A stretch of DNA of 51,759 bases from Escherichia phage vB_EcoD_Fulano1, in the sequence record OL539459.1, one strand, 5' to 3'. The notes under the pieces are model-generated. The model was not told the DNA's origin. It ran no database searches and saw nothing but the letters and a program-made list of their open reading frames with translations. Below, piece after piece: positions 4,256-51,758 of this stretch (position 1 is the first letter of the stretch; each line of letters starts with the position of its first letter). Both the position numbers and the translations under genes were made by a program.

Positions 4256-5368
4256 ATGAAGGCAAAACAAAGATTTGATAGCGTCCAGGTTAAGGCGCAT
4301 TTTGATGATAATGGCTTTTTAGTGGATCGCCCAATTGTGGCGCGAATTGGTTTGCAGGAGTACCGCACACCGTATGGAATCAGACGAGAGTTCCGACCAG
4401 CGTCAGAAGTGTTTAAGGCGGATTCGCTTGCTACGTTCGCAGGCAAGCCGATCACTATCGGTCACGTCACAGTGACGCCAGATAATGCGGATCAGGTTGT
4501 TGTTGGTTCATGCGCTGGTGCTGGTGTTCCAAATGGTGTTGGCGTTGAAGTTCCGTTAAGTATTTACTCAAAGCGAGCAATTGAGAGCGCAAAAAAGAAA
4601 GACACGGCGGAAATTTCAGTTGGTTACACATCAATTGATATTGATAAACCAGGTTGGGGTAATAATAAAACTGGCGATTACTTGTTTGAGGAAGACATTA
4701 AGGAAGACTGGAAGCCTGATTCCCCTGATTGGGTTAAATTTGACGCCATTCAGACGAATATCCGTGTTAATCACATTGCACTTGTCTTTCGTGGTCGTGC
4801 TGGCATTGCCAAATTAAATCTTGATAGTGAACAAGATTTTCCGTATAGTGACGAGGTTCTAAATGACAAAGGAGATGAGGAAATGACAGTAAAAATTAAA
4901 CTTGATGGCGCGGTAGAATTTGATGTTCCAAAGGCCGTTGCTGATCATATTGAGGCGTTAAAGGCAGATGCAAAAGCTGCAACAGAAAAAGCTGATGGCC
5001 TTGAGGCCGAGCGCGACGCCCTGAAAACTAAAGTCGATGGCATTCCGGCGCAGATTGCAGAAGCTGTTAAGAAGGCAAAGACTGACGCAGAAGAGCACGC
5101 CAAGCTAGTTGCAGATGCAACTGAAATTGGCATCAAGTGTGACGGCTTGGATGCTAAAGCGATCAAAGTTGCTTACGTCAAAGAAGTCACTGGCGCTGAT
5201 ATTTCAGAAAAAGCCGATGCATATATTGAAACAGCTTTTGACCTTGCGAAGCAGTCTGATAAAATGGCGGCGCAGCGTAAATCTGTTAAGGGCGATTCTT
5301 TCGGGTCTGGCAAGAATGAAAAAACCGACTCCCTTGATCCGACTGCGCGTTTGAAAAAACTTAAATAA
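4256..5368 (+). CDS. putative capsid scaffold-like protein
   Basis: 370 aa; globular N-terminal half followed by long Ala/Lys/Glu-rich coiled-coil-like C-terminal half; lies between head morphogenesis gene and capsid gene. Confidence 0.45.
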   Translation: MKAKQRFDSVQVKAHFDDNGFLVDRPIVARIGLQEYRTPYGIRREFRPASEVFKADSLATFAGKPITIGHVTVTPDNADQVVVGSCAGAGVPNGVGVEVPLSIYSKRAIESAKKKDTAEISVGYTSIDIDKPGWGNNKTGDYLFEEDIKEDWKPDSPDWVKFDAIQTNIRVNHIALVFRGRAGIAKLNLDSEQDFPYSDEVLNDKGDEEMTVKIKLDGAVEFDVPKAVADHIEALKADAKAATEKADGLEAERDALKTKVDGIPAQIAEAVKKAKTDAEEHAKLVADATEIGIKCDGLDAKAIKVAYVKEVTGADISEKADAYIETAFDLAKQSDKMAAQRKSVKGDSFGSGKNEKTDSLDPTARLKKLK

Positions 5369-6456: not shown

Positions 6457-7431
6457 ATGGAAAAAGAAAAATTTGATCAGCTAGATGCGGATATTGTTTC
6501 TAGCCATCTGGCTACTCGCGGCGTTAAGGGTGATGCTTCTGATATGGGTATCTGGACGGCGCAAGAGCTTCACAAGATCCGCTCAACTGCTTACGAGAAA
6601 GAGTATCCGGCAGGTTCAGCGCTTCGTGTGTTCCCTGTAACTAATGAGCTTTCTGATACTGATAAGACTTTTGAATATCAGATGTTTGACAAGGTTGGTT
6701 ACGCAAAAATTATCGCTGATTACACCGACGATCTGCCAACTGTTGACGCTTTAATGTCAAGCGAGTTTGGCAAGGTGTTCCGCCTGGGTAACGCGTTCTT
6801 GATCTCCATTGACGAAATCAAGGCTGGTCAGCGCACTGGTAAGAGCCTTTCCACTCGCAAGGCAAACGCAGCGCAAAACGCTCATGATCAGGAAGTTAAC
6901 CGCCTGGTGTTTAAGGGTTCAAAGCCGCATAAGATTATTTCGGTGTTTGAACACCCTAACCTGACAAAGATCGTGTCAACTGGATGGTTGAGCAACGATG
7001 AGAACACCAAGTTCCCCGAGACGGCTTCGGACGATCTTGAAAAGGCGATCGAAACCATCGAGAAGATCACGAATGGTCAGCACCGCGCAACCAATATCCT
7101 GATCCCGCCGTCAATGCGCAAGGTTCTTTCCGTTCGAATGGAAAACACCACTGAAAGTTATCTGGAATACTTCCAGAAACAAAACAGCGGAATCACCATC
7201 GACTCAATCGCAGAGCTTGAGGATATTGATGGCACTGGAACGAAAGGTTGCCTGGTATATGAGAAAGACCCGATGAACATGTCGATCGAAATTCCAGAAG
7301 CATTTAACATGCTTCCTGCGCAACCAAAAGATCTGCATTTCAAAGTTCCGTGTACTTCAAAATGTACTGGCCTGACGATTTACCGTCCGTTTACGCTAGT
7401 TCTTATTACTGGCTTGAAAAAATCAGGTTAA
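6457..7431 (+). CDS. major capsid protein
   Basis: 324 aa; RBS GGAGGA; followed by strong terminator; position and size typical of T1-like major capsid protein. Confidence 0.7.
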   Translation: MEKEKFDQLDADIVSSHLATRGVKGDASDMGIWTAQELHKIRSTAYEKEYPAGSALRVFPVTNELSDTDKTFEYQMFDKVGYAKIIADYTDDLPTVDALMSSEFGKVFRLGNAFLISIDEIKAGQRTGKSLSTRKANAAQNAHDQEVNRLVFKGSKPHKIISVFEHPNLTKIVSTGWLSNDENTKFPETASDDLEKAIETIEKITNGQHRATNILIPPSMRKVLSVRMENTTESYLEYFQKQNSGITIDSIAELEDIDGTGTKGCLVYEKDPMNMSIEIPEAFNMLPAQPKDLHFKVPCTSKCTGLTIYRPFTLVLITGLKKSG

Positions 7432-7444
7432 TCGTATAACATTG

Positions 7445-7474
7445 GGGAATCCTTAACTGGATTCCCTTTTTTTA
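7445..7474 (+). terminator. intrinsic terminator after major capsid gene
   Basis: stem GGGAATCC/GGATTCCC then T7. Confidence 0.75.
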
Positions 7475-7488
7475 TTGGAGGTTATGAA

Positions 7489-7761
7489 ATGGCTAAAGAA
7501 AAAACTGTAACGCTAAAGGTTTCCGGCGTGTGCCTTATCATTGTTGATGGTGAGCATTATCATCCAGGCAAAGAGTTTGACGTAGAAGAATCAAAATTGA
7601 AAACAAGCGCGTTTGAATATCTAATTGCAAAAGGCGATCTGGAGGTTAAAGACAACTCCGCATTGAACGAAGAAATCAAACAGAGCGCAGCAAGCAAACG
7701 TAAAAAAGATCCGCGAGAGGGCAAGAGCAAAGCCGAACTTGAAGACGGCGGCATCTATTAA
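7489..7761 (+). CDS. hypothetical protein
   Basis: 90 aa ORF bracketed by terminators, RBS GGAGG. Confidence 0.45.
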
Positions 7762-7808: not shown

Positions 7809-8225
7809 ATGGTTGATGAATTTTTCACTGACGCAGAAATCACGCAGCAAATCGTGAAATTAGCGCCACCGATGAAACAGATTGATCCAGATTTAATGGT
7901 GGCATGGATTGATCTGGCAAAGGAATTTGTTTGCAAGAAGCGGTTTAAAGAATCATATCCTAAAGCGGTTGCTCTTTATACGTTGCACCTTATGACGCTT
8001 GACGGAGCTATGAAGCAAGAGGGGGAAAGCGTAGAGAGTTACTCACGGCGCGTGGCGTCATTTTCCCTGACTGGTGAATTTAGCCAGACATTTGATCGCG
8101 TGTCCGGCGATTCAAGCGGAAAAGAGATCAGGCAAACCCCGTGGGGTAAAATGTATGAGACGTTAAATAGAAAAAAAGGCGGTGGATTTGGCCTTGTGAC
8201 TGGATTTCGGAGGCGCTGCAAATGA
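7809..8225 (+). CDS. putative head-tail adaptor
   Basis: 138 aa, RBS GGAGG, first of four translationally coupled genes between capsid and major tail. Confidence 0.45.
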
Positions 8226-10852: not shown

Positions 10853-13525
10853 ATGTCAGAACAATACGCAGGTTTGACGCTTGGGGTTGACGTTTCTCAA
10901 CTCAACAATGCTGTAAAGTCTTTGCAGCAATTCAAGAAGGCAAACGACGACGCAAAGGGGAGCGTTGAGAGTTTTGTTGATTCAGAGGTTGTTGCAAGAC
11001 AAAGAGCCAAACAACTGGCTGAGGAATTGGCAAAGCAGAAGCAAGAATTTAAAGCAATTCAGTCGGCAATAGATCCGACAGCAAGCAAAATGGATAAGTT
11101 GCGCCAGGCTGCGACACAGCTTGATGCGCTTTGGAAAAAAGGAATTGTGCCGGATGATACATTCTTTGAGTTAGGATCAATTCTTGAGACGCAGCAAAAC
11201 AAACTGATCGCAACTAAAAAGGCGCTAACTGAAGAAGGTCGCGCGGCGCTTGAGGAAGCAAAGAATAAAGCCAGGGCAGAGGCTGAGGCCAGAAAGTTCA
11301 TTGCGGCATTGCAGGCGCAAGCTGAAGCAGCCGGAAAAAGCAAGTCTGAATTGCTGGAAATGAAAGCGGCACAGCTTGGAGTTAGCCAAGAGGCGGCGCC
11401 TTACATCGCAAGACTGAAAGAGCAGGAAAAGCAGATTCAAAAACTTGGGATTTCTATGGGGCAGTACAAGCAAGCAATGGCGCAATTGCCAATGCAGATC
11501 ACTGACGTTGTTACTTCTCTTGCTTCAGGTATGCCAGTATGGTTGATCGCAATCCAGCAGGGCGGGCAAATCAAGGACTCATTTGGCGGTGTTGCTAACA
11601 CGTTTAAAGCGCTAATGACATTTGTCACGCCTTTAAGTGTAGGAATGACGGCGCTGACTGGTGCGCTTGGTTATGCTGCATATAATGCATACAAAGCAAA
11701 TGCGCAACTGAAGGAGATCACAAAAACCGTTCAGGAGGCAACTGGTCTTTCTGGTGATTTTGCGGAGCGGATTGCAACTGGAATCCAGGCGCTATCTGAC
11801 AAGACAGGTGAGAGCGCCGACAATCTGGCAAAGGCATACATAAGCACTAAGGATGGAGCAACCGAGGCCATACAAAAACTAGTCGATGTTGGATTTACCT
11901 ATGACGAAGCAAAGGCAAAAGTAAACGAATACAAAAACGCATCAAGTTTTGTAAGTCTTAACAATGAAATTGCTGATCACAAAAACAAAGTTCTTGAGCT
12001 TGGCGATTCATGGTATGCGGTCTTAAAAGCAAAACGTGATTATGCTTCACCGTCCGGCGGGCTGTTGGGGAAAGAGCTTGGTTATGTGAATCCAATGCTG
12101 CAATTTGCGAAGAACACCTATGAGGATATAGGAAAGATTGTAAAAGATGCGAATAAGGATATGGCGGAACGAGCAGCACGCATCGACAGAGAAAACCTTT
12201 CCTTAAACAGAGTTCGAGCGGCGCAAGAGGCTTTAAACAAAGCCATAGAGGATCAGAAGAACGTAGCAAGGACAGCAGACGAAGAGTTGAAGAAGCGCGC
12301 GGCTGAGAACGTGGAGTTCAGGCGAAAAGAGCTTGAAGAGGCGAAGAAGGCGCAGCAGCAAAAGGAAAAAGTTGGTGGAGTTGTAAAAGCACCAACAGAG
12401 CAGCTTGATAAGGAGCTATATGTTCTCAAGGCGCAACTTGAAACGCTGAAAGAGCACAGAACTGTAAATGATGTTATTTCACGCCAGAGGAAATCTTTGT
12501 GGAGCATTGAAAAGCAGATCCAGATCCTTGAGGAAGCGCAAAGTAAACGAAAGCTGACAAAAGCGGAACAGGCGTTACTAAACGAGCAAAAAGCAGTTAT
12601 TGCTATGGCAAAAGAAAAGGCAGAGATAGGCGATCAGATTGTTTTGCAACAGAGAAAGAACAAGCAATACCAGGAAGGGCTTAAATTCATTCAGCAAACA
12701 TCAGATGCTATTGACGCTATGAACTTGCGACAGTCTGGAGCTACAGATCTGCAAATCCAGCGAGAGCTTGAGTTGAAGAAGTTGCGAACTGATTATGTTG
12801 CTGGCGGCGGTAGTATCGACGATGAAATTTATCAGCAGATGGAAGCAAAGCTGAAGGAGTATTACGCCACTGAGGATCAACTTAGAAATAACTGGATTGC
12901 AGGAGCAAAGAACGCATGGGAGGTTTACGGACAAGATGCAATGGATATGTACGGCAACGTGCAAGATATTGCAAGCGAGGCGCTCAACGGTCTAACCAAC
13001 CAAATGGCTACATTCCTTGCAACAGGTAAGGCAAATTTTAAGAGCTTCGCAACGTCAATCATCCAAATGATTATTCAGATGATCACAAAGATGGTTATCT
13101 TTAATGCCATATCTGGTGCGATTGGCGGTGACACTTGGACGATTGGAAGCCTTCTTAAAAATGTTGGATTTGCAACTGGTGGATACACTGGAGACGGCGG
13201 CAAGTATGAGCCAGCAGGTGTTGTTCATAAAGGCGAGTTTGTCATGACTAAGGAGGCCACGAAGCGGATCGGAGTTGGAAATCTTTACAAAATGATGCGC
13301 GGTTATGCAAATGGCGGCGTTGTTGGTGGATCTTCATACACTGGCGGCGGCGTTTCATCTGGAGCCACAAATCTTAATATTGGCGGGATCAGCGTTGATA
13401 TTAACAACGGAAGCGATCCGAAAGGGTTGGAGACTGGCGTAAAAATGATTTTCACTGATATGATTAAGCGTTCCTGTACGCAGGGTGGGGAAGTTTACGA
13501 ATTTGTTATGTCTAAGCGGGGGTGA
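10853..13525 (+). CDS. tape measure protein
   Basis: 890 aa, coiled-coil-rich N-terminal half, hydrophobic Gly-rich segment near C-terminus; lambda-like position. Confidence 0.85.
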
Positions 13526-23585: not shown

Positions 23586-24047
23586 ATGCATATTATTACT
23601 GGTGAGATCCGAAAAGAGCCGCGAGTAAAGCAAATGCCTAACGGCAGCACACTTTATGTGGTTGAACTTTCAGAGCGATACAAAGATAAAGATGGAAACT
23701 GGCAATATACAAACTACAGTTTCTTTTTTAATGCAAAAACTGACGGACTTAATGGTTTGTATGCTGAGGCGTTCCAGGTTGGCAAGGTTATTTCTGTTTC
23801 TTGTGACACCCTGCGCATTGAAACGCGAGAATACAACGGAAATCTGTATTCAAGTTTAATGCCAGGAGGATTTGCAAATCTTATCTTCAGTCAGCGCGGG
23901 GAAAGCCAGCAACAATATCAGCAGCGAACGCAAGGAGGATGGGGACAACCACAACAACAGAATCAACCGCAACAACCGCAACAACCGCAACAGCCAAGAC
24001 AAAGCAATCAGCCTCCTATGGACTTTGACGACGACATCCCCTTCTGA
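23586..24047 (+). CDS. ssb: single-stranded DNA-binding protein
   Basis: OB-fold-sized N-terminal domain, Gln/Pro-rich linker and C-terminal DFDDDIPF identical to the canonical SSB acidic tail. Confidence 0.9.
   Translation: MHIITGEIRKEPRVKQMPNGSTLYVVELSERYKDKDGNWQYTNYSFFFNAKTDGLNGLYAEAFQVGKVISVSCDTLRIETREYNGNLYSSLMPGGFANLIFSQRGESQQQYQQRTQGGWGQPQQQNQPQQPQQPQQPRQSNQPPMDFDDDIPF
23964..23990 (+). repeat. perfect 9-bp tandem repeat (CAACCGCAA)x3 inside ssb linker
   Basis: three exact copies encode QPQQPQQPQ. Confidence 0.8.
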
Positions 24048-50617: not shown

Positions 50618-50746
50618 ATGGATAACTACATAAAACCGTCGCAGTGGTGCGCACAGATGCAAGAGGAAGCATTAGAACGAGGCGACACTGAAACGGCAAT
50701 GCACTATTTCGAAATGTACAACTTGTGGAAGGGTAGAGGTCTGTAA
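50618..50746 (+). CDS. hypothetical small protein
   Basis: 42 aa ORF not in track, RBS AAGGTGA, stop overlaps next start. Confidence 0.25.
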   Translation: MDNYIKPSQWCAQMQEEALERGDTETAMHYFEMYNLWKGRGL

Positions 50747-50976
50747 TGTTTGGAATGAACGAGGCACAATTCAACGCTGCAAAACGCCAGGCTAAGAAGT
50801 GCGGAGAGGCAATGAAGGCGGATGTTGAAAAGCGCGGAAAGTATGTTGATGAAGTTATGAAGGGCATTATTGCCGAACATTATCAGCCAGTTTCGCCAAT
50901 GCTGACAATTACCCAATTCATCTGGTTGTGTGGTTATCTTCGTGGGCGATGGGGAAACGCATTTGACCGCGAATGA
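50746..50976 (+). CDS. hypothetical protein
   Basis: 76 aa ORF. Confidence 0.35.
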   Translation: MFGMNEAQFNAAKRQAKKCGEAMKADVEKRGKYVDEVMKGIIAEHYQPVSPMLTITQFIWLCGYLRGRWGNAFDRE

Positions 50977-51005
50977 TTGACAACGATTTACTGATTGGTT
51001 AACAT
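50977..51005 (+). promoter_or_regulatory. sigma70-like promoter TTGACA-17-TAACAT
   Basis: consensus -35 with 17-nt spacer, directly after stop of 50746..50976. Confidence 0.45.
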
Positions 51006-51122
51006 CTTCGGTGTTTACATAAGAGCGGCGTTAGTGCCGAACGGGTGGCGCGGTTGCCACGCAACAACGGCGATATGCAGGTTTTTACCGTAATACGTAT
51101 CGCCTTTTTTATAGGTGAATAT

Positions 51123-51356
51123 ATGGAAAAGTACAAATTAACTTTCATGTTTAATAGTATGGTGATGAATCCCTTAAATGGTTACGCTTGCAATAGCTTT
51201 TCTGTTACCGTGAATGAGGATGAAATTGATGATGATGGCAAATTCATTCGAATTGGTGAATACTTGTACCCAGTTCACAATATCAATTGCATCAAACGCG
51301 AGATTGTAAAAGATGAAGTACAAAGTAAAGCTGACGATCAGGCGAATGGGGCGTAA
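51123..51356 (+). CDS. hypothetical protein
   Basis: ORF track 51045..51356 trimmed to ATG 51123 behind AGGTGA; upstream part spans hairpin plus T-run. Confidence 0.35.
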   Translation: MEKYKLTFMFNSMVMNPLNGYACNSFSVTVNEDEIDDDGKFIRIGEYLYPVHNINCIKREIVKDEVQSKADDQANGA

Positions 51357-51501
51357 TTGCCAGTCATGTAGGCAGGATTTTGAATGCGAGATTTCAGCGC
51401 AAAATCCTGTTGACGCGATTCAATGTGCTAAAGTTATATCAGGTGCAGATCCAGAGACGCATCAATTTTCAATAAATTTTGTAAGGGAAGTATCATGTTA
51501 A
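51346..51501 (+). CDS. hypothetical Cys-rich small protein
   Basis: ORF track 51313..51501 trimmed to ATG 51346 to limit overlap. Confidence 0.2.
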   Translation: MGRNCQSCRQDFECEISAQNPVDAIQCAKVISGADPETHQFSINFVREVSC

Positions 51502-51728
51502 ACTTAATTTCTGCTTTTGTTATTGGTTTTGTTTTTGCTGTGATTATTCTGCTTATCGCGTCGGAAAAGATTTGCAAATTTCTTGCTAAGAACGGGAAGT
51601 TTGCAAGCGCGACATGGAATAACAAGATGCAGCGATGGGATGTGCGCGGTCACTATCTGACGATTGGTAGCAGAATCCATCAGCATCTGAAGAATCAAGA
51701 AGATGAAAAAGTAAAATACAAGTGTTGA
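51495..51728 (+). CDS. small membrane protein
   Basis: 77 aa, hydrophobic N-terminal helix; followed by terminator. Confidence 0.35.
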   Translation: MLNLISAFVIGFVFAVIILLIASEKICKFLAKNGKFASATWNNKMQRWDVRGHYLTIGSRIHQHLKNQEDEKVKYKC

Positions 51729-51735
51729 ACAACTA

Positions 51736-51758
51736 CCCGCCAAATGGCGGGTTTTTTA
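51736..51758 (+). terminator. intrinsic terminator
   Basis: stem CCCGCC/GGCGGG, loop AAAT, then T6. Confidence 0.75.

What the first reader, a model, noticed from the sequence alone, without database searches (positions are those of the whole stretch)
50977..51122. Consensus promoter followed by a ~110-nt leader containing a hairpin plus T-run just before a gene
TTGACA(50977)-17-TAACAT(51000) starts directly after the stop of the upstream gene. The leader carries stem GGCGATA/TATCGCC (51069-51075 / 51098-51104) followed by T6 (51105-51110), then RBS AGGTGA and ATG 51123. A terminator-like structure between promoter and start codon is an attenuator layout. Alternatively the gene starts at GTG 51045 or ATG 51075 in the same frame and the hairpin is coding.
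Basis: partly seen in the sequence, partly recalled or inferred. Interest (0 to 1): 0.4.

Follow-up and report, generated by a model that had tools for sequence, protein, structure and literature searches.

The report
Conserved small RNA gene of T1-like phages
The promoter, hairpin and T-run are real, but they belong to a structured non-coding RNA of about 97 nt that is conserved across the T1-like phages (Drexlerviridae), is unannotated and absent from Rfam, and in this phage ends in a terminator; it is not a gene-specific attenuator or a coding extension.

Summary
The window is a complete Hanrivervirus (T1-like) genome.

- **Start codon.** Comparison with relatives fixes the downstream gene start at ATG 51123. 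In several close relatives the upstream in-frame extension is closed or frame-shifted.
- **Structure.** The 110-nt "leader" is a structured RNA. It has a conserved 13-nt single-stranded 5' end (from about G51013), hairpins H1 and H2, and a long hairpin H3 followed by U6.
- **Covariation.** In 21 distinct relatives 96% of cells pair, and 13 pairs show compensatory changes, against 0-3 in slid controls. G-U pairs place the RNA on the + strand.
- **Autonomy.** The promoter and RNA stay together while the genes on both sides change.
- **Distribution.** A model of the 5' end plus H1 and H2 finds the element at the same genomic position in T1, TLS, Rtp, NBD2, IME347 and Ec_L1. In those phages it runs into the next gene or a tRNA. 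The U-tract is specific to Hanrivervirus, Warwickvirus and Henuseptimavirus.
- **Negative searches.** There is no Rfam match, no E. coli genome match, no conserved antiterminator and no conserved leader peptide.

Most likely it is a free-standing non-coding RNA whose terminator also attenuates read-through. Its function is unknown. Expression has not been shown.

The parts
50746..50976 (+). Upstream gene (76 aa, phrog_303, homolog of T1 gp59). Its stop codon TGA 50974-50976 abuts the -35 hexamer.
50977..50982 (+). -35 hexamer TTGACA.
   Evidence: TTGAC is kept in all genera examined, even where the upstream gene and its reading frame differ.
51000..51005 (+). -10 hexamer TAACAT, 17 bp from the -35. 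Relatives have TAGCAT, TAACCT, TACATT, TAGATT or TGnTAGTAT.
51013..51025 (+). Predicted transcription start (invariant G51013, 7-8 nt after the -10) and the conserved single-stranded 5' end GUUUACAUAAGAG. The family consensus is GUNNACRNAMGAG.
   Evidence: Invariant columns; unpaired in the MFE fold. The TSS is inferred, not mapped.
51026..51039 (+). Hairpin H1 (CGGC / GCCG, loop GUUAGU).
   Evidence: Covariation across genera (CG/GC, AU and UA variants; 94.6% paired).
51043..51062 (+). Hairpin H2 (core GUGGC 51045-51049 / GCCAC 51056-51060, hexaloop GCGGUU, outer pair G51043-C51062). It is preceded by the conserved linker GAACG.
   Evidence: 5 of 6 pairs show compensatory changes across genera.
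51063..51068 (+). Conserved unpaired linker AACAAC.
51069..51104 (+). Hairpin H3, the terminator stem. It has a 9-bp base (51069-51077 / 51096-51104), an apical helix G51080-G51081-U51082 / A51087-C51088-C51089 (the two G-C pairs are the ones supported by comparison), and a conserved 3' bulge GUAAUA at 51090-51095. The bulge is GUAAGA in all 21 relatives examined; the T at 51094 is private to this phage.
   Evidence: 100% paired, 5 of 9 pairs compensatory; -14.1 kcal/mol, z = -3.6. Probably homologous (by eye; not statistically tested) to the final hairpin with loop ..CCGUAA in T1, TLS, Rtp, NBD2 and Ec_L1. Private substitution.
51105..51110 (+). U-tract (T6). Expected 3' end of an RNA of about 96-98 nt.
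   Evidence: T-run length is 4-9 among relatives of the Hanrivervirus, Warwickvirus and Henuseptimavirus group and absent in other genera. The 3' end is inferred.
51113..51125 (+). RBS AGGTGA and the true start codon ATG 51123 of the 77-aa gene (51123-51356).
   Evidence: homologous proteins start here in three genera, and the upstream extension is closed in grams, L057, L044 and the Warwickvirus relatives.
51735..51752 (+). Second, canonical intrinsic terminator before the small terminase gene. It marks the end of the short unit that read-through transcripts enter.

Best explanation
This is an autonomous non-coding RNA module that is conserved across the Drexlerviridae.

Mechanism, step by step:
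1. Host sigma-70 RNA polymerase starts at a near-consensus promoter (50977-51005), at about G51013.
2. The transcript has a conserved 13-nt single-stranded 5' end, two short hairpins (H1, H2) joined by conserved A/C-rich linkers, and a long final hairpin (H3) with a conserved bulge.
3. In this genus H3 is followed by U6. Most transcripts from this promoter, and those arriving from the upstream early operon, should therefore stop at 51105-51110 and release a structured RNA of about 97 nt.
4. The fraction that reads through is the only visible source of mRNA for the three small genes at 51123-51728. The terminator therefore acts as a constitutive attenuator.
5. I take the released small RNA to be the functional product, acting in trans. 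It more likely works through its conserved unpaired nucleotides and loops on a host or phage factor than by pairing with phage mRNAs.

Shown here: the sequence features, the RNA structure (by covariation), the strand, independence from the flanking genes, the family-wide distribution and the start codon of the next gene.

Inferred: the transcription start, the 3' end, termination efficiency, trans action and the target.
For: - Promoter and hairpin are at the stated coordinates.
- Structure: on 21 distinct relatives, 96.1% of cells pair, and 13 pairs carry compensatory changes against 0-3 in slid controls.
- The core H1/H2 alignment across at least five genera gives 93.5% paired and 8 of 10 pairs compensatory.
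- U-G at the 51076/51097 pair occurs in 18 sequences. It would be A-C on the other strand, so the RNA is on the + strand.
- The MFE of 51013-51110 equals the covariation-supported structure.
- Autonomy: similarity to many relatives ends exactly at the T-run. Three unrelated genes follow the element. In T1 a different gene in a different frame precedes it.
- The model built without TLS and Rtp finds both, at 39.7 bits (E 8e-9) and a weaker 22.3 bits (E 5e-4), each in the expected intergenic gap.
- The only tRNA gene of Rtp (Arg-UCU) and the tRNA-Ser(GCU) of NBD2 and LF82-10 sit directly after the final hairpin. This suggests the locus is used for making stable RNAs.
- The region is not coding and matches no Rfam family.
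Against: - No expression data exist. The TSS, the 3' end and RNA stability are predictions.
- In T1, IME347, Ec_L1 and TLS the homologous RNA lacks a U-tract and runs straight into the RBS of the next gene. The ancestral state therefore looks like a 5' leader, which favours a cis role.
- H3 is an unusually long, interrupted terminator hairpin. The ARNold-based annotation of phage G29-2 did not call it.
- No target was found. The 5' end pairs with nothing in four phage genomes better than shuffled controls do. Host targets could not be searched.
Confidence: 0.5

Rival explanations
1. It is a cis-acting leader RNA at the head of the transcription unit that runs into the terminase and structural genes. 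The nascent H1/H2 RNA would modify the transcribing host RNA polymerase, or recruit a factor to it. The polymerase would then read through H3, the 51735 terminator and the many intrinsic terminators inside the late operon. In function this resembles HK022 put RNA.
For: - The element is always at the same place and in the same orientation, a few small genes upstream of the small terminase gene.
- In most genera it is a leader without a terminator.
- The + strand of the structural region carries many strong terminators (12 or more are annotated in T1), but essentially none of the phage's repeat-type promoters.
- No N- or Q-type protein is annotated in the relatives inspected. The one regulator scanned is Cro/HTH-like.
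- Conserved unpaired nucleotides and the absence of a pairing target fit an RNA that binds a protein.
Against: - No sequence or structure similarity to anything in HK022.
- In Rtp and NBD2 a tRNA lies between the RNA and the downstream genes. RNase P processing would cut the tether that, to my recollection, put needs.
- A near-consensus sigma-70 promoter would fire early, not late.
- Acquiring a terminator directly after an antiterminator RNA is odd.
- The mechanism cannot be tested with these tools.
Confidence: 0.22
2. It is a trans-acting base-pairing sRNA, Hfq- or ProQ-dependent, whose conserved 5' end is a seed against a host mRNA.
For: - It has its own promoter, a conserved single-stranded 5' end, a terminator hairpin with at least 6 U, and an AACAAC (ARN-like) linker.
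- The arrangement, sharing a terminator with the upstream operon, resembles sRNAs derived from 3' UTRs or from prematurely terminated 5' UTRs (PMC9438474 and PMC7815308, titles and abstracts seen).
Against: - The terminator is missing in most genera.
- The seed varies between genera that infect the same hosts (GUUUACAUAAGAG versus GUAGACAGACGAG).
- No phage target scores above shuffled controls.
- Host targets were not testable. No 20-nt-scale complementarity or homology was found in 5,426 E. coli genomes.
Confidence: 0.15
3. It is a regulated attenuator or riboswitch for the downstream 77-aa gene.
For: The layout is promoter, then hairpin plus U-tract, then RBS. The downstream genes depend on read-through.
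Against: - No conserved antiterminator: alifold of the alignment truncated before the 3' arm gives about -0.9 kcal/mol with no pairing of the 5' arm.
- No conserved leader ORF.
- No Rfam aptamer.
- The downstream gene is replaced in close relatives while the element is kept.
- The U-tract is absent in other genera.
Confidence: 0.06
4. It is operon punctuation only: a terminator for the early operon plus a promoter for the next genes. The intervening sequence would have no function as an RNA.
For: It holds the first clear terminator on the + strand after about 7.5 kb of early genes.
Against: - The promoter lies upstream of the terminator, not downstream of it.
- H1 and H2 play no part in termination, yet they covary across genera.
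- The unpaired segments are as conserved as the neighbouring coding sequence.
- The RNA persists where there is no terminator.
Confidence: 0.05
5. It is coding sequence, the N-terminal extension of the downstream protein from GTG 51045, TTG 51054 or ATG 51075. TTG 51054 is the start annotated in GenBank for G29-2 and aaroes.
For: The frame is open for 120 nt upstream of ATG 51123 in the window and in some close relatives.
Against: - The extension is closed after 39 nt in grams, 30 nt in L057 and L044, and 12 nt in the Warwickvirus relatives, although they encode the same protein.
- A 20-nt insertion and length changes in the T-run lie inside it.
- Homologous proteins align from the ATG.
Confidence: 0.02

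Closest known systems
Lambda PR' - 6S RNA - tR' late module
   Same: A strong host-type promoter is followed after about 100-200 nt by an intrinsic terminator. This gives a short abundant transcript, sits upstream of the packaging and structural genes, and makes downstream expression depend on read-through.
   Different: No Q-family protein is known or annotated in T1-like phages; the proteome was not scanned exhaustively. The terminator is missing in most genera. The RNA carries covarying hairpins that, as far as I know, have no counterpart in lambda 6S RNA.
HK022 put RNAs (processive antitermination by a nascent RNA; from my own knowledge)
   Same: Two conserved stem-loops lie directly downstream of a promoter, at the head of a unit that must cross terminators. 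No phage protein partner is evident.
   Different: No homology: the core model has no significant hit in HK022. The 5' end is single-stranded and there is a third hairpin. tRNA genes are inserted downstream in some genera. No functional evidence exists.
T4 stable RNAs C and D (species 1 and 2), co-transcribed with the T4 tRNA cluster (from my own knowledge)
   Same: They are phage-encoded, structured small RNAs of unknown function that are physically linked to tRNA genes. Here, tRNA-Arg in Rtp and tRNA-Ser in NBD2 and LF82-10 lie directly downstream.
   Different: No sequence relation was tested or is expected. In this window there is no tRNA, and the 3' end is made by a terminator, not by processing.
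sRNAs released from 5' UTRs by premature termination, or sharing a terminator with an upstream mRNA (PMC7815308, PMC9438474)
   Same: The promoter-proximal intrinsic terminator would yield a discrete small RNA and, at the same time, limit downstream expression.
   Different: Those are host RNAs with demonstrated Hfq binding or sponge targets. Here no partner is known, and the terminator is lineage-specific.
trp-type attenuators and transcriptional riboswitches
   Same: A terminator hairpin lies between the promoter and the start codon.
   Different: There is no leader peptide, no alternative antiterminator and no known aptamer. The element is not tied to a particular downstream gene.

Membership tests
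Intrinsic (Rho-independent) terminator | A stable G+C-rich stem-loop immediately followed by a U-tract on the transcribed strand. | tested here: met
   A 9-bp base stem with 4 G-C pairs next to U6; -14.1 kcal/mol, z = -3.6; stem kept by compensatory changes. The hairpin is atypical in being 36 nt long and interrupted.
Intrinsic (Rho-independent) terminator | Transcript 3' ends map to the U-tract. | not testable with these tools
   No transcript data are available.
Sigma-70 promoter | -35 and -10 hexamers at 16-18 bp spacing, kept in relatives. | tested here: met
   TTGACA-17-TAACAT. TTGAC[A/C/G/T]-17/18-TAnnnT (TTGCAT in Rtp) occurs in Hanrivervirus, Warwickvirus, Henuseptimavirus, Tlsvirus, Tunavirus, Badaguanvirus, Vilniusvirus, Eclunavirus and Rtpvirus. 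Promoter activity itself was not tested.
Leader-peptide (trp-type) attenuator | A conserved short leader ORF with regulatory codons. | tested here: not met
   The only ORF inside the leader (50995-51093, 32 aa, TTG start) is broken by indels in relatives.
Leader-peptide attenuator / transcriptional riboswitch | A conserved alternative (antiterminator) pairing that competes with the terminator. | tested here: not met
   Alifold on the alignment truncated before the 3' arm gives about -0.9 kcal/mol with no pairing of the 5' arm. An alternative exists in this single sequence but is not conserved.
Any Rfam 15 family (riboswitches, sRNAs, leaders, tRNA-like RNAs) | A match to a curated covariance model. 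| tested here: not met
   No credible hit at E up to 10 in the window region. Only the tRNA is found in NBD2 and LF82-10.
tRNA / tmRNA | Cloverleaf detected by ARAGORN. | tested here: not met
   0 genes in the whole window.
Trans-acting base-pairing sRNA (Hfq-type) | Own promoter, a terminator with a U-tail, and a conserved single-stranded seed. | tested here: met
   All are predicted from sequence, and the terminator holds only for the Hanrivervirus, Warwickvirus and Henuseptimavirus group.
Trans-acting base-pairing sRNA (Hfq-type) | Complementary target sites conserved with the seed. | tested here: inconclusive
   No phage site scores better than shuffled seeds in four genomes. The host transcriptome could not be scanned. 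No long complementarity was found in E. coli genomes.
HK022 put antiterminator RNA | Homology to putL or putR. | tested here: not met
   The core model R2, run with filters off, has no hit better than E = 0.83 anywhere in HK022.
HK022 put antiterminator RNA | The nascent RNA makes RNA polymerase terminator-resistant in cis. | not testable with these tools
   This needs transcription assays.
Lambda-type Q-dependent late promoter module | A Q-family antiterminator encoded by the phage. | tested here: not met
   None is annotated in KarlJaspers, T1, TLS or Rtp. The single annotated regulator is Cro/HTH-like. The whole proteome was not scanned.
Protein-coding sequence (N-terminal extension) | The reading frame is kept open and in phase in relatives. 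| tested here: not met
   indels of 1, 2 and 20 nt.

The most novel reading that the evidence does not exclude
The conserved 5' end plus H1 and H2 could be a new kind of nascent-RNA device that makes host RNA polymerase resistant to termination, or loads a host factor onto it. It sits at the head of the unit leading into the terminase and structural genes. This would explain how T1-like phages, which have no RNA polymerase, sigma factor, N or Q of their own, express a 20-kb late region interrupted by a dozen intrinsic terminators.
Probability: 0.15. Interest if true: 0.85.

Novelty: new variant of a known kind. Interest (0 to 1): 0.6.

Why it matters
T1 is one of the seven classical T phages, and its relatives are very common coliphage isolates and laboratory contaminants. 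How they control transcription is still essentially unknown.

- **A new RNA family.** This is a structured RNA with its own promoter, kept at one genomic position in every genus examined. It is unannotated, and gene callers routinely cover it with spurious ORFs. It is a defined candidate regulator in a family where none is known.
- **Practical use.** The result corrects the start codon of a gene in many GenBank records. It also gives two covariance models, R1 and R2, that find the element.
- **Possible significance.** If the RNA acts on RNA polymerase or another host factor, the open question of T1 late gene expression becomes directly testable.

Tried and rejected
- **Coding extension from GTG 51045, TTG 51054 or ATG 51075.** Rejected by comparison with relatives.
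- **Known RNA family.** Rfam at E up to 10 gave nothing.
- **tRNA or tRNA-like RNA.** ARAGORN found none in the window. A BLAST hit of the T1 gap to "tRNA-Ser" records turned out to be the RNA segment just 5' of the tRNA, not the tRNA itself.
- **Host-derived or prophage element.** No match in 5,426 E. coli genomes.
- **Antiterminator alternative.** None is conserved.
- **Phage mRNA targets of the 5' end and of the CGCAACAACGG linker.**
  - For the 5' end, nothing scored above shuffled controls.
  - The linker's complement is somewhat enriched genome-wide (24 versus 13.9 expected). The excess includes a tandem pair at 23968-23987 and is probably a codon or repeat effect. I did not follow it up.
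- **put homology.** No hit in HK022.
- **Lambda boxA.** The reverse complement of TAAGAGCG is CGCTCTTA, which from memory is the boxA of lambda. It lies on the untranscribed strand and is not kept in T1-type members (GAAGAGGCG), so I treat it as chance.
- **RfaH ops.** GGCGATATGCAG resembles GGCGGTAGnnTG, but the differing positions covary with the 3' arm of H3, so they are stem bases and not a DNA signal.
- **Second copy.** None in the window: R1 and R2 give only the one locus, plus a 15-bit noise hit at 12543.
- **Literature.** Searches for a T1 or Drexlerviridae sRNA, TSS map or transcriptome found nothing relevant.
- **Loose DNA patterns in IMG/VR.** Most hits were chance and were filtered out with nhmmer or cmsearch.

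Full report
**Context.** The window is a complete genome of about 51.8 kb from a T1-like phage (Drexlerviridae, Tempevirinae, Hanrivervirus). It is 96.8% identical to phage aaroes over the last kilobase. The finding lies near the end of a block of small + strand genes (about 43.5-51.7 kb). That block precedes, in circular order, the small terminase gene and the structural genes.

**Observation.**
These are TTGACA 50977-50982, a 17-bp spacer, TAACAT 51000-51005, stem 51069-51075 / 51098-51104, T6 51105-51110, AGGTGA 51113-51118 and ATG 51123.
- The promoter scan returns this site with 10 of 12 matches. The whole genome holds fewer promoter-like matches than shuffles predict, about 70 against about 98. 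The match alone therefore proves little.
- The hairpin is longer than described. It has a 9-bp base (51069-51077 / 51096-51104, including one U-G pair), a short apical helix and a 6-nt bulge.
- On its own it folds at -14.1 kcal/mol, and 0 of 200 shuffles fold as well.

**The start codon.**
- GenBank relatives annotate the downstream gene from a TTG equivalent to window 51054.
- Relatives that encode the same 77-aa protein (MEKYKLT.., MIKYKLT.., MQKFKLT..) have the in-frame upstream extension closed. It closes after 39 nt in grams, 30 nt in two IMG/VR contigs and 12 nt in Warwickvirus phages.
- Indels of 1, 2 and 20 nt lie inside the supposed extension.
- The gene therefore starts at ATG 51123, and the 110 nt upstream are non-coding.

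**The leader is a structured RNA.**
- BLAST found the intergenic sequence in 129 phage records. In many of them similarity stops exactly at the end of the T-run.
- I aligned 21 distinct versions running from the -10 hexamer to the T-run.
- The aligned RNA has a single-stranded 5' end, hairpin H1 (51026-51039), hairpin H2 (51045-51060 with outer pair 51043-51062) and hairpin H3.
- On that structure 96.1% of cells pair. Thirteen pairs show changes on both sides, against 0-3 when the 3' partners are slid by 1-3 columns.
- The 9-bp base of H3 pairs in every sequence, with compensatory changes at 5 of its 9 pairs.
- RNAalifold independently recovers H2 and H3. The MFE fold of 51013-51110 is the same structure.
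- The U-G pair at 51076/51097 is present in 18 sequences. It would be an A-C mismatch on the other strand, so the structure belongs to a + strand RNA. It is not a DNA cruciform or an antisense RNA.

**The module is autonomous.**
- Three unrelated genes follow the element in close relatives.
- In T1 a different gene (ST58), read in a different frame, precedes it. The homolog of the window's upstream gene, T1 gp59, lies one gene further back.
- The sequence AATGATTGAC and the -35/-10 geometry are nevertheless kept.
- The RNA is about as conserved as the neighbouring coding sequence. Against Warwickvirus it is 76-83% identical, compared with 84% for the upstream gene and 66% for the downstream gene.

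**Family-wide distribution.**
- The full-length model R1 hits the window once (117.7 bits) and T1 at 7617-7700. The T1 hit lies in an unannotated 165-nt gap.
- I built a core alignment of the 5' end plus H1 and H2 from Hanrivervirus, Warwickvirus, Henuseptimavirus, Tunavirus, Badaguanvirus, Vilniusvirus, Eclunavirus and unclassified contigs. It gives 93.5% of cells paired, against 19-48% in slid controls. Eight of 10 pairs carry compensatory changes.
- The model built from that alignment, R2, then found members it had not seen. In TLS the hit is at 7824-7877 (39.7 bits). In Rtp it is at 4651-4701 (22.3 bits). Both lie in the expected gap after the gp59 homolog.
- R2 also hit 20 T1-like IMG/VR contigs, most of them corresponding to sequenced isolates.
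- In every case an invariant G lies 7-8 nt after a TAnnnT hexamer. That hexamer lies 17-18 bp after TTGAC (TTGCAT in Rtp). I therefore predict the transcription start at G51013.
- The 5' end has the consensus GUNNACRNAMGAG.

**What differs between genera is the 3' end.**
- All members end in a G+C-rich hairpin whose loop or bulge contains CCGUAA.
- In T1, IME347, Ec_L1 and TLS this hairpin is followed by about 10-15 nt and then the RBS of the next gene, with no U-tract.
- In NBD2 and LF82-10 a tRNA-Ser(GCU) follows it. In Rtp a tRNA-Arg(UCU) follows, which is that phage's only tRNA.
- Only in the Hanrivervirus, Warwickvirus and Henuseptimavirus group is the hairpin lengthened and followed by 4-9 T.
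- The terminator is therefore a derived feature, added to an older promoter-plus-RNA unit.

**What it is not.**
- No Rfam 15 family matches, and it is not a tRNA.
- It is not in any of 5,426 complete E. coli genomes.
- No alternative pairing of the 5' arm of H3 is conserved, and no leader ORF is conserved. A classical attenuator or riboswitch is therefore not supported.
- The 5' end finds no partner in four phage genomes better than shuffled controls do.
- The core model finds nothing in HK022, so it is not a put homolog.
- The flanking proteins are of unknown function. The phage's one annotated regulator is Cro/HTH-like, not Q-like.
- Full-text searches found no description of such an RNA, nor any TSS map for T1-like phages.

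**How it most likely works.**
- In this phage, host RNA polymerase should start at G51013 and mostly stop at 51105-51110. This releases a structured RNA of about 97 nt. Transcripts from the upstream early operon should end at the same place.
- No other promoter lies between the T-run and ATG 51123. The genes at 51123-51728 therefore depend on read-through, and the hairpin acts as a constitutive attenuator.
- I favour the released RNA as the functional product (confidence 0.5). The reasons are the autonomy of the module, the conserved unpaired segments and its linkage to tRNA genes in other genera.
- The main rival (0.22) is a cis-acting leader that alters the transcribing polymerase. Three things favour it. 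The ancestral state has no terminator. The element always sits just upstream of the terminase and structural block. That block is full of intrinsic terminators but lacks the phage's own repeat-type promoters.
- None of these functional statements is demonstrated. Only the sequence anatomy, the RNA structure, the strand, the distribution and the start codon are shown.

**Verdict.**
The attenuator reading holds as a description of the layout but not as the explanation.
- The real finding is a new structured non-coding RNA family with strong covariation support. It is conserved in all nine Drexlerviridae genera examined.

Noticed in passing
window 51094: This phage has a private G-to-T change inside the otherwise invariant bulge GUAAGA of hairpin H3. 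The closest relative, ESh4, and 20 other distinct sequences all have G. It could be a sequencing error or a real mutation at a functional nucleotide.
   Followed up: partly
window, 20 sites, for example 44646, 45639, 47053, 48370, 49718 (+) and 39144, 40063, 41462, 42114, 42990 (-): The 21-nt direct repeat reported for phage TLS (ATAGCACnnnTTGnTAAAA) occurs 20 times against 3.4 expected. Most copies are followed about 18 nt later by a -10-like hexamer (TATAAT, CATAAT or TATAGT), and several share a leader resembling CAUCGA(A/C)AACGA. This looks like a phage-specific promoter class. It is nearly absent from the structural region, and the promoter studied here lacks it.
   Followed up: partly
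L258 (Rtp) 4893-4969; L252 (NBD2) 645-732; L253 (LF82-10) 651-738: The tRNA genes found here (Arg-UCU, the only tRNA in the complete Rtp genome; Ser-GCU in NBD2 and LF82-10) sit directly after the final hairpin of the same conserved RNA. Two different tRNAs therefore occupy the same junction in different genera.
   Followed up: yes
Relatives: G29-2 and aaroes CDS start (equivalent to window 51054); JakobBernoulli bas07_0089; ESh4 CDS at L315 94-192: Gene callers place spurious ORFs or N-terminal extensions over the non-coding RNA in many GenBank records.
   Followed up: yes
Phage database records MG065636-MG065685: About 20 records named 'Campylobacter phage' (host given as C. jejuni) carry this T1-like coliphage sequence at 89-97% identity. 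They are probably mislabelled or contaminant assemblies.
   Followed up: no
window, 34 sites: CTGATTGGT, the motif in the promoter spacer, is over-represented genome-wide at up to 1 mismatch (34 against 11.6 expected). One copy sits just before the -10 of a repeat-type promoter at about 42094. It may be a codon-usage effect (Leu-Ile-Gly) or a real signal.
   Followed up: no
window 23968-23987 (-): A tandem pair of CGGTTGTTGCG, each one mismatch from the complement of the RNA's linker CGCAACAACGG. Overall this complement is mildly enriched (24 against 13.9 expected).
   Followed up: no
window 7414-7467 (+): A promoter-like TTGAAA-17-TAACAT ends 1 nt before a strong terminator hairpin (7444-7467) in the structural region. 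This is a promoter abutting a terminator, in the opposite order to the usual operon boundary.
   Followed up: no
window 51313-51356: The 77-aa gene (51123-51356) and the next gene (51313-51501, phrog_2919) overlap by 44 nt in different frames. In JakobBernoulli and BEK7 the first gene is absent, and the RNA is followed directly by the phrog_2919 homolog.
   Followed up: partly
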